This document shows, piece by piece, positions 1 through 3,886 of a stretch of DNA of 64,000 nucleotides. Every line of letters begins with the position of its first letter. Position 1 is the first letter of the stretch. Source of the stretch: a virus (taxonomy: Duplodnaviria > Caudoviricetes). The DNA lies in IMG/VR virus record IMGVR_UViG_3300031998_000027, positions 1 through 64,000 of that record; one strand, 5' to 3'. The notes below the pieces were generated by a model, which was not told the origin of the DNA, made no database searches, and saw nothing but the letters and a program-made list of their open reading frames with translations. The translations under genes were made by a program, and so were the position numbers.

Positions 1-3
1 ATT

Positions 4-195
4 TTGAGGGCGCGTTTTCCTTTTCTAAAGATTTTTTATATGCCCATGTCTGGCCACTATGTGGCAGGCGCGCAAAATACGTACTTCGACTGGACTGGAA
101 AAGTTACTCCTTCTGAGCCAGTCATACCTTTTGATACAATTAAAAAAGACGACCGTGAATGGTATTCGCGCCTTATTCGCGATTGTGTTATATAA
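4..195 (+). CDS. 3' part of hypothetical protein (probably starts before the window)
   Basis: Open frame from the window edge; TAA at 193-195 abuts the RNA gene. Confidence 0.45.
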   Translation: MRARFPFLKIFYMPMSGHYVAGAQNTYFDWTGKVTPSEPVIPFDTIKKDDREWYSRLIRDCVI

Positions 196-276
196 GGGGT
201 AGAGAAGAGTTTCGACTGCGGTTAAAGCCAAAGAGCACTCCGTAGGACGCGGGGGCGGTACCCGCCTACTTCACCA
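196..276 (+). ncRNA. tmRNA-like RNA consisting only of the tRNA-like domain (no tag reading frame)
   Basis: 5' GGGGTAG pairs with CTACTTC-A-CCA (G3.U70, A73, encoded CCA); stemless D-loop ending TTCGA; CTGCGG/CCGTAG stem; GGAC; T-arm GCGGG-GGCGGTA-CCCGC. Confidence 0.8.
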
Positions 277-327
277 AGGGTGATAGGACGCCCTAAAATT
301 TTTTGTTTTCAAAAGGAGGAAGGCAAA

Positions 328-630
328 ATGAAGTATTATTCAGACCTTACGAAAAAATTCTACGAAGACCCCTCTGAGTGCGAAAGTGCGGAGGAAGCCT
401 TCAAGGAAGAGCAGAAGAAGAAGGAAGAGGAGGCTCTTCAGAAATCTAACGCGCGCAAAGAGGCTGCAAAGAAGGTTGACGAAGCCTATAACAACCTCGT
501 TGCTGCGAAAAAGGAATATGAGAAGGTTCTTTCTGACTTCTGTAAGGAGTACGGAGCCTATCATACTTCCATTAATAAGGATAGTATCTCTGACTGGCTT
601 GATGCCTTTTGGAGCGGACTCTTTTTCTAA
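328..630 (+). CDS. hypothetical coiled-coil protein
   Basis: AAGGAGG SD before ATG 328; K/E-rich helical sequence. Confidence 0.75.
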   Translation: MKYYSDLTKKFYEDPSECESAEEAFKEEQKKKEEEALQKSNARKEAAKKVDEAYNNLVAAKKEYEKVLSDFCKEYGAYHTSINKDSISDWLDAFWSGLFF

Positions 631-640
631 TTTAAAAGGA

Positions 641-680
641 GAAAGCTCTCACTTTACTATAGTGAGGGCTTTCTTTTTTT
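641..680 (+). terminator. intrinsic terminator
   Basis: GAAAGCTCTCACT/AGTGAGGGCTTTC stem followed by a T-run. Confidence 0.7.
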
Positions 681-718
681 ACTTTTAAATAGCTTCTTAG
701 TAGCAAAGGAGGTACCGA

Positions 719-1336
719 ATGGAAAATGCTTATTTCATTAGTGTTCCAGAAGATGCGAATTTACAACTTCCAAGTCCAGAACTTTTAACCTATTACAAAG
801 GTTTAAAAGATAGAGAGTTTTGGCTTGAAGGAGAAATTTCAGAAGAAAATTTAGAACTCGCGCGACTTATTCTGCGCTGGAACAAAGAAGATGCAAAATT
901 AGAGCCTGCTGACCGCAAACCTATTAAAATTTATTTCAACAGTCCAGGTGGCGCACTTGATGTTGCGTATACACTCTATGATATAATTAGAATTAGTAAA
1001 ACACCTGTAATTGGAATAAATGTAGGATATTGCGCGAGCGCGGCCGCTTATATCTTTATTGCTTGTCATCAAAGGAGAATGAGTAAGCACGCCTATTTCA
1101 TCTTCCACCAGGGTTCTATGGCAGGACTTAGTGGAGAATATAAACAAATTATTGCATCGATAGAAGATTATCAATCACAAGTAGAAGAACTCTCTGCTTT
1201 AATAAAAGAAAGAACTCTTTATACTGATGAAGAAATTGCCAAAAATATTATAAATGAATGGTATATTCATCAAGAAGAAGCTTTAGAAAAAGGCGTTGTT
1301 CAATCTGTTATTAATGGCATTGAGGAGGTTCTTTGA
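719..1336 (+). CDS. clpP: ClpP-like serine protease (S14)
   Basis: KPIKIYFNSPGG, CASAAA nucleophile motif, FIFHQ. Confidence 0.85.
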   Translation: MENAYFISVPEDANLQLPSPELLTYYKGLKDREFWLEGEISEENLELARLILRWNKEDAKLEPADRKPIKIYFNSPGGALDVAYTLYDIIRISKTPVIGINVGYCASAAAYIFIACHQRRMSKHAYFIFHQGSMAGLSGEYKQIIASIEDYQSQVEELSALIKERTLYTDEEIAKNIINEWYIHQEEALEKGVVQSVINGIEEVL

Positions 1337-2160
1337 TTTTGGACGAAAAAGGATATAAAGAAATTACTCTAAGCGATGAAGAACTTGGGCAATTCTATGT
1401 TGAAATGCGCTCACCCATTGAAATTTTAGAAAATCAATATTTAGTTATAAAAGACAAAGATGGAATTGTAATTGATAAATATAAATTTCAAAATGGTGAA
1501 CTTAAAAAAGTTAATTTCCAAATTATAAATTCTACTTATATGGGCAAGATAAAGCCGAAGAATTTTGAGCAAGAGTTGGCGCTTGACCTCTTAAATAGTA
1601 AAGATGTAACTGTAAAACTTATAAGAGGCTGCTATGGTTCAGGTAAAGACTTCTTAATGTTTGGAAAAGCTTTAGAATTAATAGATGCCGGCGCCTTCAA
1701 AAAAATTATATATATTAGACCTAATGTTACTCTTAAAGATGTGCCAGATATTGGTTATTTAAGAGGAAATGAATTTGATAAGTTATCTTGGACGCTTGGC
1801 CCATTATATGATAAGGTTGGTGGGAAAGAAGAAATTGACCGCTTAATTGAAGAAGAAAGACTTGAATTAATGCCACTTCTTTTTATTAGAGGTCGTTCTT
1901 TTGAAAGTTCTATTGTCTATGTAACTGAAGGTCAAAATATTACAAATGAAATTGCAAAATTACTTCTTGGAAGAATTGGTCAAGATTCAATTCTAATGAT
2001 AAATGCAGATAACCATCAAACTGACTCGCGCATTTATGAAAAAGATAATGGAATTGTCTCAATGATTGAGAAGCTTAGTGGTAATCCTCTTTTTGGTTAT
2101 GTTTATTTAAGTCAGACCTTGAGGAGCGATACTGCAAACCTGGCCAATCTTTTGGATTAA
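1333..2160 (+). CDS. phoH: PhoH-family ATPase
   Basis: GCYGSGKD P-loop, IGYLRG, FIRGRSF, TEGQN, LGRIG. Confidence 0.8.
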   Translation: MILDEKGYKEITLSDEELGQFYVEMRSPIEILENQYLVIKDKDGIVIDKYKFQNGELKKVNFQIINSTYMGKIKPKNFEQELALDLLNSKDVTVKLIRGCYGSGKDFLMFGKALELIDAGAFKKIIYIRPNVTLKDVPDIGYLRGNEFDKLSWTLGPLYDKVGGKEEIDRLIEEERLELMPLLFIRGRSFESSIVYVTEGQNITNEIAKLLLGRIGQDSILMINADNHQTDSRIYEKDNGIVSMIEKLSGNPLFGYVYLSQTLRSDTANLANLLD

Positions 2161-2266
2161 TTTTGCCAGCGGCATTGCTGCTGTTTATATATACCGTAGG
2201 ACTTTTCTATTTTAATGGAGAAGTCCTACATTTTTTTTACTTTTTATAAAGAAGGTGGTGAGGTAT

Positions 2267-3886
2267 ATGCCAGCAATTAGAAGAAGACATGATACTCTTG
2301 GTCAGCTCTTCGTTTATTATGAGAGATTAGATACGGATAATGATGGAATAAATAGACCTTTATATCTTGCTGCAAAAAATGCTTTTTCTGCGGTAAGTAC
2401 TGAAATTGGTGATATTATACAAACTGCAAGTGTTATTCGAAAAATTGGTGAGGCAGAAAGGCAAAAAGAAGAGAATTTATTAAATACAATCTTTAATGCC
2501 AATGTTAATGTTGACCTTGATGATAAAGATAGTGTTAAAGAATTTATAAGTACCCTTAATGCTTGTATAGGGTTAAAGGAAGTTTATGAACGAAATGTAT
2601 TTTTAGTTCAGAATTCTAAAGGTCAAAAGAGTGTTATTAGTTTTTTCCCTACTTATTTTATGATGATTTGGGATGAGCGAGTGCCAGCAATTGAAGAAAC
2701 TATTAATTCTGCGATAGAACATATGAACCCAGGTGAAAATATTTTAGATATTATTCAACAAATATTAGAGCCGGCTTTAGAATCTATAGTCCCTGCTGCG
2801 ATTGAAAGAATGTTCCATGCAAGACCAGAACTTCGTAATCAAATGCCTCCAGAAATGCAAGATGCTTATTCTTCTTTATTAAATATGATTGGAACTGTTC
2901 AACAACAAGGAAGTTTAGCAAATCAACTTTCTAATATATATAAATTAGATGATATAAAGCAATTTTTAACAAATGAAATAGCTAATAAAAATCAATTTTC
3001 TTATAAAGGATTAGACGGATTAGTTAAGAAAAATTTTCATCAAAGAGGCGGCTTATCTTTAGAAGCAATAGAGAATACTGTTTTAAAAACTGTTGCCAAT
3101 GGTTTAAAAAATACTAATCCAAATATGAAAGTAGAAGTTTATGCAACTGGTGCAAGCGAAGTAAAAGCAGATAATATTCTTACTATTGGTATTGACCCAG
3201 AATTAATGGCAGAAACATTAGAAACTAATTTAGCTATTAGTAGAAAGAGAAATACTGATATGTTTAAAAAACTTGGTAATGATTTAAAAAATATTAAAAA
3301 TGGATATATAATATATAGCTCAGATAAAAACTACACTTATAATGAAGGGTTTAAAAGCCGTGGTGGTTTTCAAGGAGACAAAATTAGTTTAGATAGTTAT
3401 CGACAAATAATGAATTATACCAATAGAAATGCAAGAACTTTTGTTGGTACTATACTTCAAACCGCAAAAGGCGCAGTGGGAGACCCTTCTTTACAGGATA
3501 CCATGGAACAGGCCTTAGCACAAGATATTGCCTATTTTCTTTTTGATGATTTTAAAACAATAGGTGATGAAACTAAAGCTGGAGATACAAAGTCAATTCA
3601 TATTATGAATTTAAATGGAATTTTAATACCTCTTTCTTTCTTTTTAATATTATTTGCACGAGCTATAGAAGAAGAAATAGGTAATCCAGAGGATTTTGTA
3701 AAAGTAAATTTAAGTATTCCAGAAATTTTATTCCCCACTCAAGAAGAACAGTCAGAATGGCAAGAACAAAATGGCGCGAGCAGTTTTGATGCTTGGGTTT
3801 ATCAACGTGAATATGCTTTAGCTCAATCAAAAATTGAAGTACATTTCTTAAAAGAATTTAAGGAAATTATCTCTGAATATTTATAA
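2267..3886 (+). CDS. hypothetical protein (~540 aa)
   Basis: Long ORF with GGTGGTGAGG SD; no motif recognised. Confidence 0.8.
   Translation: MPAIRRRHDTLGQLFVYYERLDTDNDGINRPLYLAAKNAFSAVSTEIGDIIQTASVIRKIGEAERQKEENLLNTIFNANVNVDLDDKDSVKEFISTLNACIGLKEVYERNVFLVQNSKGQKSVISFFPTYFMMIWDERVPAIEETINSAIEHMNPGENILDIIQQILEPALESIVPAAIERMFHARPELRNQMPPEMQDAYSSLLNMIGTVQQQGSLANQLSNIYKLDDIKQFLTNEIANKNQFSYKGLDGLVKKNFHQRGGLSLEAIENTVLKTVANGLKNTNPNMKVEVYATGASEVKADNILTIGIDPELMAETLETNLAISRKRNTDMFKKLGNDLKNIKNGYIIYSSDKNYTYNEGFKSRGGFQGDKISLDSYRQIMNYTNRNARTFVGTILQTAKGAVGDPSLQDTMEQALAQDIAYFLFDDFKTIGDETKAGDTKSIHIMNLNGILIPLSFFLILFARAIEEEIGNPEDFVKVNLSIPEILFPTQEEQSEWQEQNGASSFDAWVYQREYALAQSKIEVHFLKEFKEIISEYL

What the first reader, a model, noticed from the sequence alone, without database searches (positions are those of the whole stretch)
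196..276. Minimal 81-nt tmRNA: tRNA-like domain only, next to clpP
Seen: all tmRNA TLD hallmarks in standard order (GGGG start, G3.U70 Ala determinant, stemless D-loop ending UUCGA, short P2 stem, GGAC, T-arm, ACCA). However, an 18-nt loop replaces the whole pseudoknot/tag-ORF domain. The T-loop is GGCGGUA. Known: the TLD is what binds SmpB and is alanylated; GGCRGUA T-loops characterise alphaproteobacterial tmRNAs; tmRNAs lacking the mRNA domain are known from some mitochondria. Inference: a phage RNA that could enter stalled ribosomes without adding a degradation tag, or sequester SmpB, altering host trans-translation. A ClpP-like gene lies ~440 bp downstream.
Basis: partly seen in the sequence, partly recalled or inferred. 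Interest (0 to 1): 0.8.

Follow-up and report, generated by a model that had tools for sequence, protein, structure and literature searches.

The report
Phage tag-less mini-tmRNA gene
A 116-kb gut or rumen phage carries a real 81-base gene for only the alanine-accepting, tRNA-like end of the bacterial ribosome-rescue RNA (tmRNA); one such RNA is published from mycobacteriophage DS6A, and this copy has swapped its "elbow" for the type otherwise typical of Alphaproteobacteria.

Summary
Window 196-276 (+) folds as a tmRNA tRNA-like domain (TLD) with nothing else. It has a 7-bp acceptor stem with G3.U70, a stemless D-loop ending UUCGAC, a 5-bp P2 stem capped by 18 nt, GGAC, a 5-bp T-stem with loop GGCGGUA, A73 and an encoded CCA. 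A terminator hairpin follows directly.

ARAGORN and Rfam gathering thresholds miss it. Comparative evidence is strong: across 41 distinct phage sequences, 97% of stem cells pair and G3.U70 is invariant.

Four syntenic relatives carry an 81-nt TLD-only gene in the same slot. So it is not a deletion or an assembly artefact. Those orthologues have canonical T-loops, and the three scanned pass Rfam's tmRNA threshold. The window's copy has switched both T-loop and D-loop (GGG to GAG) to the alpha type, in a phage whose portal resembles those of Bacillota phages.

The kind is published once (mycobacteriophage DS6A, "TLD only"), and this scan has already reported it in other phages.

The likely role is inferred, not shown: alanylation, SmpB binding, and interference with or tag-less bypass of host trans-translation.

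The ClpP neighbour reflects synteny within this phage lineage, not a conserved partnership.

The parts
196..276 (+). TLD-only (tag-less) tmRNA gene, 81 nt
   Evidence: Sequence read and fold. Model R1 scores 89.9 bits and finds a single copy in the genome. Covariation is shown, and syntenic orthologues.
196..202 (+). Acceptor stem, 5' strand. It pairs with 266-272 as G1-C72, G2.U71, G3.U70, G4-C69, U5-A68, A6-U67, G7-C66.
   Evidence: The helix is 100% paired in 41 sequences, with double changes at three pairs and G3.U70 invariant.
203..216 (+). Stemless D-loop analogue ending UUCGAC. It carries GAG where the orthologues carry GGG.
   Evidence: GG is present in 88/91 D-loops of canonical-T-loop elements, but in only 1 of 9 alpha-type lineages.
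217..244 (+). P2 arm: 5-bp P2a (217-221 with 240-244), extendable by C216-G245. It closes an 18-nt cap made of an A-rich internal loop and a 2-bp inner hairpin (227-228 with 235-236).
   Evidence: All five P2a pairs show double changes. RNAalifold recovers P2 in 30 sequences. The cap is identical in orthologue L420.
245..248 (+). GGAC junction motif
   Evidence: Invariant in alignments A1, A2 and A5.
249..265 (+). T-arm: 5-bp stem (249-253 with 261-265) and 7-nt loop GGCGGUA (254-260), the alpha type.
   Evidence: It matches the Rfam alpha_tmRNA consensus. The stem is 100% paired, with double changes at all five pairs.
266..276 (+). Acceptor 3' strand (266-272), discriminator A273 and encoded CCA (274-276).
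   Evidence: A73 is conserved in the alignments.
277..311 (+). Intrinsic-terminator-like hairpin (277-294) followed by a U-rich tract. It ends the RNA-island transcription unit.
   Evidence: It is conserved in the orthologues, with compensatory changes in L421.
1..195 (+). 3' part of the 97-aa YunG-like ORF (starts at genome 116061, across the 127-bp assembly overlap). Its stop codon abuts G1 of the RNA gene.
   Evidence: The same ORF lies immediately upstream in L419-L422.

Best explanation
Window 196-276 is a functional phage gene for a tag-less mini-tmRNA. It is the tRNA-like domain of tmRNA closed by a short capped P2 hairpin, with no resume codon, tag frame or pseudoknots.

It sits at the 3' end of the phage's RNA island: tRNAs, ROOL RNA, tRNA-Met, tRNA-Glu and a small YunG-like ORF.

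The following steps are all inferred, not shown:
- It is probably co-transcribed with that island up to the terminator at 277-311.
- RNase P probably cuts it out at G1, and the 3' end is trimmed to the encoded CCA.
- Host alanyl-tRNA synthetase probably charges it through G3.U70 and A73.
- It probably binds host SmpB and EF-Tu.

Because it has no message, it cannot direct tagging. The most likely net effect is competition with host tmRNA for SmpB and for stalled ribosomes. That would damp ssrA tagging and proteolysis during infection.

Its elbow (D-loop GAG with T-loop GGCGGUA) is an alternative solution, normally seen in alphaproteobacterial and phage two-piece tmRNAs. In this lineage it replaced the canonical pairing of a GG D-loop with a UUCGANU T-loop.
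For: **Shown**
- Anatomy.
- Single copy in a complete 116-kb genome.
- Stem covariation and invariant G3.U70 in 41 distinct sequences.
- The same 81-nt gene in the same slot in four related phages, with compensatory changes in all three stems and in the terminator.
- The three orthologues scanned (L420, L421, L422) pass Rfam tmRNA gathering at 53.4-70.7 bits, against a threshold of 47.
- Other members abut tRNA genes: L253 lies 5 nt before a 13-tRNA array, and L056, L203 and L075 are next to a tRNA.
- In L423 the slot holds four tRNAs instead.
- A terminator lies directly after CCA.
- The phage has no SmpB of its own, so any SmpB partner must be the host's.
- The DS6A element has the same architecture.

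**From the literature**
- The DS6A form is reported as inhibiting endogenous tmRNA when expressed in E. coli (PMC11915505).

**Elbow switch**
- L422 shares the window's acceptor 5' strand and T-stem but has a canonical T-loop and a GGG D-loop.
- D-loop and T-loop types co-vary across the family.
Against: - No expression, processing, charging or SmpB-binding data exist for this RNA.
- The window copy has a G2.U71 wobble next to G3.U70, unique among the 41 sequences. This might weaken the acceptor stem or charging.
- Its fold energy is not better than shuffled sequence.
- It fails every curated detector.
- Whether a Bacillota-type host's SmpB, AlaRS and ribosome accept an alpha-type elbow is unknown.
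- Inhibition and tag-less rescue cannot be told apart from sequence.
- The A-rich internal loop and inner hairpin of the P2 cap recur across the family. SmpB titration does not explain that conservation.
Confidence: 0.6

Rival explanations
1. Tag-less rescue factor rather than inhibitor. Ala-TLD with SmpB enters stalled ribosomes and accepts the nascent chain. The peptidyl-RNA is then released by drop-off and peptidyl-tRNA hydrolase, or by an ArfB-type or release-factor-type protein. This would recycle ribosomes quickly for phage translation without translating a tag, as is proposed for message-less organellar tmRNAs.
For: - The full set of tRNA-like functional elements is conserved: 12-bp acceptor/T coaxial stack, G3.U70, A73 and CCA. 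A pure SmpB sponge would not need all of them.
- CDS-less tmRNAs persist in jakobid mitochondria together with SmpB, and in two plastids (PMC11915505).
- The gene sits among tRNA genes that boost phage translation.
Against: - Hudson et al. [quoted passage not shown]
- No release partner is identifiable in the phage.
- A ribosome left with peptidyl-TLD and an empty A site would still need a second rescue step.
Confidence: 0.25
2. A tRNA-like RNA with a role outside trans-translation. Examples are a decoy or substrate for a host tRNA- or tmRNA-targeting defence nuclease or modification enzyme, or another protein-binding RNA that uses the conserved P2 cap.
For: - The P2 cap architecture (A-rich internal loop plus small hairpin) recurs in 64 of 106 elements.
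- The cap is identical between the window and L420 while the stems changed, which suggests a selected surface.
- The elbow switch removes the canonical T-loop without destroying the gene.
- The gene lies in an island with other enigmatic RNAs, such as ROOL.
Against: - Every conserved unpaired motif (UUCGAC, GGAC, G3.U70, A73) is a tmRNA TLD hallmark.
- No candidate partner gene co-occurs with the element.
- No known defence system targets tmRNA TLDs, to my knowledge.
Confidence: 0.1
3. A non-functional remnant: either an attP fragment or host-gene scrap from integration into ssrA, or a decaying copy of a full tmRNA.
For: - Phages often integrate into ssrA and carry its 3' end. One search shows a genuine alphaproteobacterial tmRNA at a prophage edge, and L215 turned out to be the same.
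- The window copy has a wobble at pair 2-71.
Against: - The complete genome encodes no tyrosine or serine recombinase.
- The element includes the 5' half of the TLD, in standard order.
- Orthologues in four relatives keep the same length and compensate their stems.
- The new T-loop is exactly the functional alpha consensus and comes with the matching D-loop change, which is not random decay.
Confidence: 0.03

Closest known systems
Mycobacteriophage DS6A 'TLD only' tmRNA (tmRNA Website tmID 11587; Hudson, Lau and Williams 2014, PMC4131195; listed as a CDS-less form in PMC11915505)
   Same: - Phage-borne, about 81-83 nt, in standard order.
- GGGG start with G3.U70, a stemless D-loop ending in UCGAC, and P2a closing an A-rich internal loop plus small hairpin.
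- 5-bp T-stem, and no tag frame (JN698994.1 28478-28560).
- My model, trained without it, scores it at 40.1 bits. Rfam tmRNA scores it at 43.2 bits.
   Different: - DS6A has a canonical T-loop with a GG D-loop, GCAC instead of GGAC, and CUA instead of CCA at the 3' end.
- It is GC-rich and comes from an actinobacterial host.
- It sits between two protein genes, not in a tRNA/ROOL island.
- The window copy has the alpha-type elbow.
Two-piece (circularly permuted) tmRNA of Alphaproteobacteria and marine phages (Rfam RF01849, RF04321; e.g. Caulobacter and OM43 phage Melnitz, PMC9004378)
   Same: - T-loop GGCRGUA.
- A D-loop of the form A-rich, then AG, then UCGAC.
- Identical GGAC and T-stem logic.
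   Different: - In those genes the acceptor piece comes first and the 5' acceptor strand, D-loop and tag-coding piece follow downstream.
- Here the order is standard, the two halves are joined by an 18-nt cap, and no coding piece exists anywhere in the genome.
CDS-less organellar tmRNAs (jakobid mitochondria, Rfam RF02544; two ~65-bp plastid genes, PMC11915505)
   Same: Reduced to the tRNA-like domain, and presumed to act with SmpB without adding a tag.
   Different: They are organellar and AT-rich. RF02544 does not match the window element. They evolved by reduction of a resident tmRNA, not as a viral accessory gene.
Syntenic orthologues in related uncultured phages (L419:925-1005, L420:2871-2951, L421:2868-2948, L422:2872-2952)
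   Same: - Same slot after the YunG-like ORF, same 81-nt length, and a closely similar P2 cap (identical in L420).
- A terminator follows, and then the same downstream genes, including ClpP and PhoH.
   Different: They have canonical T-loops and a GGG D-loop. L420, L421 and L422 pass Rfam's tmRNA threshold (L419 was not scanned), while the window copy does not.

Membership tests
TLD-only (CDS-less) phage tmRNA, DS6A type | Standard-order tRNA-like domain (5' acceptor, D-loop, P2, T-arm, 3' acceptor) closed by a short hairpin, about 65-85 nt in total | tested here: met
   The DS6A locus has the same architecture.
TLD-only (CDS-less) phage tmRNA, DS6A type | Alanine identity elements G3.U70 and A73 | tested here: met
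   G3.U70 is present in 41/41 family sequences.
TLD-only (CDS-less) phage tmRNA, DS6A type | No resume codon, tag frame or pseudoknots, either in the gene or elsewhere in the genome | tested here: met
   - The cap is only 18 nt. Its reading frames are not conserved between the window and L283 (read from the alignment).
- No other tmRNA piece is found in the genome.
- Caveat: an unlinked tag template with no TLD features would escape these models.
TLD-only (CDS-less) phage tmRNA, DS6A type | Detectable similarity to the published member by a structure-aware model | tested here: met
   R1, trained only on alpha-type elements, scores DS6A at 40.1 bits with E = 2.6e-9 in a 451-nt search.
TLD-only (CDS-less) phage tmRNA, DS6A type | Expressed, charged with Ala, binds SmpB, inhibits tmRNA | not testable with these tools
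   Known only from the literature for DS6A and similar molecules (PMC4131195, PMC11915505).
Canonical one-piece tmRNA (Rfam RF00023) | Reaches the curated gathering score | tested here: not met
   The window gives no hit. Orthologues L420, L421 and L422 do reach it, at 53.4-70.7 bits against 47.
Canonical one-piece tmRNA (Rfam RF00023) | mRNA-like domain with tag reading frame, and pseudoknots | tested here: not met
   Only 18 nt lie between the P2 strands.
Two-piece alphaproteobacterial or phage tmRNA (RF01849, RF04321) | T-loop GGCRGUA with an AG-type D-loop | tested here: met
Two-piece alphaproteobacterial or phage tmRNA (RF01849, RF04321) | Permuted gene order with a coding piece downstream of the acceptor piece, and the gathering score reached | tested here: not met
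   The 5' acceptor strand lies upstream. The scores of 16.6 and 21.4 bits fall short of 50 and 47. Downstream of CCA there is a terminator and a protein gene.
tRNA (RF00005 / ARAGORN) | D-stem, and an anticodon stem with a 7-nt loop | tested here: not met
   The D-region is stemless and the P2 cap is 18 nt.
Mitochondrial tmRNA (RF02544) | Match to the family model | tested here: not met
   No match at 196-276. The only weak hit is elsewhere, at 19.7 bits against a threshold of 65.

The most novel reading that the evidence does not exclude
TLD-only tmRNAs are a large, mobile, tRNA-gene-like accessory class in phages, and their tRNA elbow exists in two interchangeable states. One state pairs a GG D-loop with a UUCGANU T-loop. 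The other pairs an AG D-loop with a GGCRGUA T-loop.

The window documents a switch between these states inside one orthologous lineage of Bacillota-type phages. If that switch is adaptive, it would reveal an unrecognised layer of phage-host conflict centred on ribosome rescue. For example, it might escape a host enzyme or defence that recognises or modifies the canonical T-loop, or it might tune SmpB or EF-Tu affinity. It would also show that the 'alphaproteobacterial' elbow is not lineage-bound.
Probability: 0.2. Interest if true: 0.7.

Novelty: new member of a known kind. Interest (0 to 1): 0.5.

Why it matters
Trans-translation is essential or near-essential in many bacteria and is a drug target. 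The held literature names only one natural viral RNA that consists of the tmRNA tRNA-like domain alone (DS6A).

This locus adds four things:
- It shows that such genes are stably inherited in a lineage of large gut or rumen phages.
- It shows that they behave like tRNA cassettes inside RNA islands.
- It shows that curated detectors can miss them when the elbow is of the alpha type.
- It gives a natural pair that differs almost only in the T-loop and D-loop (window versus L422), which is a ready-made experiment on what the tmRNA elbow contributes to SmpB, EF-Tu, AlaRS and ribosome recognition.

In one truncated scan, 111 of the first 120 IMG/VR loci returned by a single pattern were such elements (91 unique sequences). 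This suggests that phage interference with, or bypass of, ribosome rescue is common and under-annotated.

Tried and rejected
- **ARAGORN.** Default ARAGORN finds nothing at the site. Thresholds lowered to 70-80% give only obvious false tmRNA calls.
- **Rfam.** Nothing at gathering thresholds. RF00023, RF04321 and RF02544 over the whole genome give only tRNA-derived or weak partial hits.
- **Phage DNA search.** blastn of window 1-3000 against 50,697 phage records gave no match.
- **ClpP as a lead.** Using ClpP to find related loci returned only 38%-identical relatives with a different layout.
- **Genome-contig scan.** My one scan of this collection was effectively wasted. I therefore cannot say whether TLD-only genes occur in bacterial chromosomes.
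- **First viral scan.** An 82-nt class was a chance match inside a prophage coding sequence.
- **Low-scoring CM hits.** Hits below about 50 bits were phage two-piece acceptor pieces behind TATAAATA-type promoters, not TLD-only genes.
- **L215.** I first counted it as a member. It is a real permuted tmRNA in a provirus flank, so I dropped it.
- **Partner RNA for the cap.** I looked for an RNA that could pair with the 18-nt cap. The only 14-nt match (genome 76235-76248) lies antisense to a minus-strand ORF. The mRNA therefore carries the same sequence as the cap, not its complement, and I judged it chance.
- **Split tmRNA.** No separately encoded tag piece was found, but this cannot be excluded rigorously.
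- **attP remnant.** Rejected, because the genome has no integrase or resolvase.
- **ClpP partnership.** Rejected as a conserved association.
- **Distant portal relatives.** Phass-1 and an Enterococcus phage lack the element.

Full report
**What is there**

The window is the first 64 kb of a complete 116,286-bp IMG/VR virus record. It has 37% G+C and a 127-bp terminal overlap.

Positions 196-276 on the + strand read, in order:
- a 7-nt acceptor strand beginning GGGG;
- a 14-nt stemless D-loop ending UUCGAC;
- a 5-bp P2 stem closing 18 nt;
- GGAC;
- a 5-bp T-stem with the 7-nt loop GGCGGUA;
- the complementary acceptor strand, giving G3.U70 and also G2.U71;
- A73 and CCA.

The minimum-free-energy fold gives exactly this structure, but its energy is ordinary for the composition (z = -0.45). 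A stem-loop plus U-tract follows immediately at 277-311.

The element begins one base after the stop codon of a 97-aa YunG-like ORF. That ORF starts at genome 116061, just after tRNA-Glu.

Upstream on the same strand are eight tRNA genes (genome 111425-116046) and a ROOL RNA at 319.8 bits (genome 114503-115109). The element is therefore the last gene of an RNA island.

**Detectors**

ARAGORN and Rfam at curated thresholds report nothing. At permissive thresholds, only the T-arm and 3' acceptor strand resemble alpha_tmRNA and tmRNA_permuted (16.6 and 21.4 bits). RF00023, RF04321 and RF02544 find no other tmRNA piece in the genome. The phage encodes no SmpB.

**Is it more than chance?**

A pattern scan of IMG/VR for the D-loop end, GGAC, an alpha-type T-loop and CCA returned about 30 loci with the same ~81-nt architecture, in several unrelated sequence lineages. 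A second scan and a metagenome scan added more, including a human-gut contig.

I built a covariance model (R1) from eight of these. It finds a single copy in the window's genome.

On 15 alpha-type matches, 93% of stem cells pair and 11 of 17 pairs show double changes. One of those 15, L215, later proved to be an ordinary permuted tmRNA, so I dropped it.

On a broader set of 41 distinct sequences:
- 97.3% of cells pair, against 42-52% when partners are slid;
- the acceptor and T stems are 100% paired;
- 13 of 17 pairs show double changes;
- G3.U70 is present in all 41.

This set includes elements that were never used to train the model. The alignment was fitted to the model, which favours pairing. 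However, an independent MAFFT/RNAalifold run also recovers P2 and the T-stem, with compensatory changes at 11 of 12 pairs.

**Orthologues**

The neighbouring 100-aa ORF (328-630) has homologues at 66-86% identity. Four contigs carrying them keep the gene order YunG-like ORF, ~130-nt gap, that ORF, (in three of them an extra gene), ClpP, PhoH.

All four have an R1 hit of exactly 81 nt in the gap, at 55.9-61.3 bits. In each, the same terminator hairpin follows. Stems differ by compensatory changes, while the P2 cap is almost unchanged.

Relatives carry the same short form, not a full tmRNA.

In a fifth relative, L423, the slot holds four tRNA genes and no TLD. So the slot turns over like a tRNA cassette site.

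**The elbow switch**

The orthologues have canonical T-loops and GGG in the D-loop. The three that I scanned (L420, L421, L422) pass Rfam's tmRNA gathering score at 53.4-70.7 bits, against 47.

The window copy has GGCGGUA and GAG instead. L422 shares its acceptor 5' strand and T-stem, so essentially only the elbow differs.

Across the family the two features go together. GG occurs in 88 of 91 D-loops of canonical-T-loop elements. It occurs in 1 of 9 alpha-type lineages, most of which have AG at that place. Genuine two-piece tmRNAs of Alphaproteobacteria and phages show the same AG-type D-loop with GGCRGUA.

My reading is inferred from standard tRNA elbow geometry. The G19-C56 pair is kept, while the G18/U55 contact is replaced by A18/G55.

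The switch could have arisen by substitutions or by patch recombination with another TLD gene. The human-gut element in L056 and L203 has an identical T-arm.

**Host**

The alpha-type loop does not indicate an alphaproteobacterial host:
- The portal protein's nearest relatives are human-gut phages and Enterococcus, Bacillus and Brevibacillus phages, at 24-29% identity.
- The phage has strong AGGAGG-type ribosome-binding sites.
- It carries a ROOL RNA, as do its relatives.

The host itself was not identified.

**How large is the family?**

Of the first 120 loci, 111 carry a complete element with 7/7 acceptor pairs and 5/5 T-stem pairs. There are 91 unique sequences, all with G3.U70, and most are 78-84 nt.

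About 60% of the elements, including the window's, fold with a P2a helix, an A-rich internal loop and a small inner hairpin.

Several elements abut tRNA genes.

**What is known**

- Hudson, Lau and Williams (2014) list 'Mycobacterium phage DS6A (TLD only)'. They state that it is little more than the TLD, and that a similar molecule strongly inhibits tmRNA, perhaps by titrating SmpB, citing Mao et al. 2009 (PMC4131195). I could not read Mao et al. itself.
- The 2025 tmRNA database paper lists CDS-less forms in jakobid mitochondria, two plastids and DS6A (PMC11915505).
- I fetched the DS6A locus. The element (JN698994.1 28478-28560) is unannotated in the record and has the same architecture. It scores 40.1 bits with R1 and 43.2 bits with RF00023.
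- Full-text searches found no paper describing a family of such phage RNAs.
- Earlier agents of this scan reported the same kind in other phages. I used those notes as leads to the papers and checked the claims myself.

**Mechanism**

Shown: anatomy, conservation, covariation, genomic setting, and the absence of a phage SmpB, a tag piece and any integrase.

Inferred:
- co-transcription with the RNA island;
- RNase P and 3' processing;
- alanylation through G3.U70 and A73;
- binding of host SmpB and EF-Tu;
- competition with host tmRNA, so that stalled-ribosome products are not tagged.

I put 0.6 on this last step. The main rival is productive tag-less rescue (0.25). The two differ only in what happens after the RNA reaches the ribosome.

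Two features of the window copy need caution: the G2.U71 wobble, and the unknown compatibility of an alpha-type elbow with Bacillota factors.

**ClpP**

The 205-aa ClpP-like protein (719-1336) is real. It lies 45 kb from the terminase, portal and head block at 46-53 kb, so it is probably not the prohead protease.

It stays with PhoH in this lineage whether or not the TLD is present. It also pairs with PhoH in a distant phage. No ClpP, PhoH or YunG homologue lies within the fetched flanks of 23 other TLD-only loci.

The adjacency is therefore lineage synteny. A functional link to ssrA-tag proteolysis is unsupported speculation.

**Verdict**

The element is a genuine member of the phage TLD-only tmRNA kind. 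Its distinguishing point is a documented switch to the alpha-type elbow. This is of moderate interest.

Noticed in passing
genome 114503-115109 (+), outside the window; L202:6504-7110: A full-length ROOL RNA (RF03087, 319.8 bits) sits inside the tRNA island about 1.2 kb upstream of the mini-tmRNA. ROOL is also present upstream in relatives L420-L423 (298-333 bits).
   Followed up: partly
genome 111425-116046 (+); L202: There are eight phage tRNA genes: Lys-UUU, Gln, Lys-CUU, Ser-UGA, Ser-GCU, Thr, Met and Glu. A tRNA-Pro-like sequence at genome 115249-115322 is called only at a lowered ARAGORN threshold. Relatives have a good tRNA-Pro between ROOL and tRNA-Met, so this may be a decaying copy.
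   Followed up: no
L202:2284-2810 (genome about 110283-110809): A weak group I intron match (23.2 bits) overlaps an HNH endonuclease ORF (PHROG E = 1e-27). This fits another first-reader note of an intron-split tRNA-Leu in this genome.
   Followed up: no
L423:2452-3001: In one related phage, the slot between the YunG-like ORF and the 100-aa ORF holds four tRNA genes (Gly, Arg, Val, Leu) instead of the mini-tmRNA. The slot behaves as a cassette site for tRNA-like genes.
   Followed up: partly
L008, L015, L018, L031, L039, L075 and about 25 other IMG/VR loci: One nearly invariant alpha-type mini-tmRNA is abundant in environmental viral contigs. It has two alternative downstream flanks and often lies within about 100-200 nt of a contig end. 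This suggests either a recombination or assembly-break hotspot, or two phage sublineages.
   Followed up: no
L204:622-701 (-); L419:925-1005; L427:179-261: Some members do not encode CCA: a marine GOS read has AUAU after the acceptor stem, L419 has AUCA, and DS6A has ACUA. Those copies would need CCA addition. The window encodes ACCA.
   Followed up: no
L427 (JN698994.1 28478-28560): The published DS6A TLD-only tmRNA is not annotated in its GenBank record, and it scores just under Rfam's tmRNA gathering threshold (43.2 bits against 47).
   Followed up: yes
genome 76235-76248 (+); L298:2236-2249: A 14-nt stretch complementary on the + strand to the mini-tmRNA cap lies inside a minus-strand 307-aa ORF. 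The mRNA therefore carries the same 14-mer as the cap. About 0.004 such matches are expected by chance. I judged it coincidence.
   Followed up: partly
window 719-2160; L007:3100-4510: A ClpP-like protease and a PhoH-like ATPase are adjacent in this phage lineage. They are also adjacent, in the opposite order, in a distantly related viral contig, far from the head-morphogenesis genes. This may be a recurrent accessory pair.
   Followed up: partly
L294 (OQ749652.1, Phage Phass-1): The second-best portal match is to Phass-1, a 136-kb human-gut phage filed under 'Caudoviricetes code 15 clade' (TAG recoding). The window phage's long ORFs are open under code 11, so it does not appear to be recoded.
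   Followed up: no
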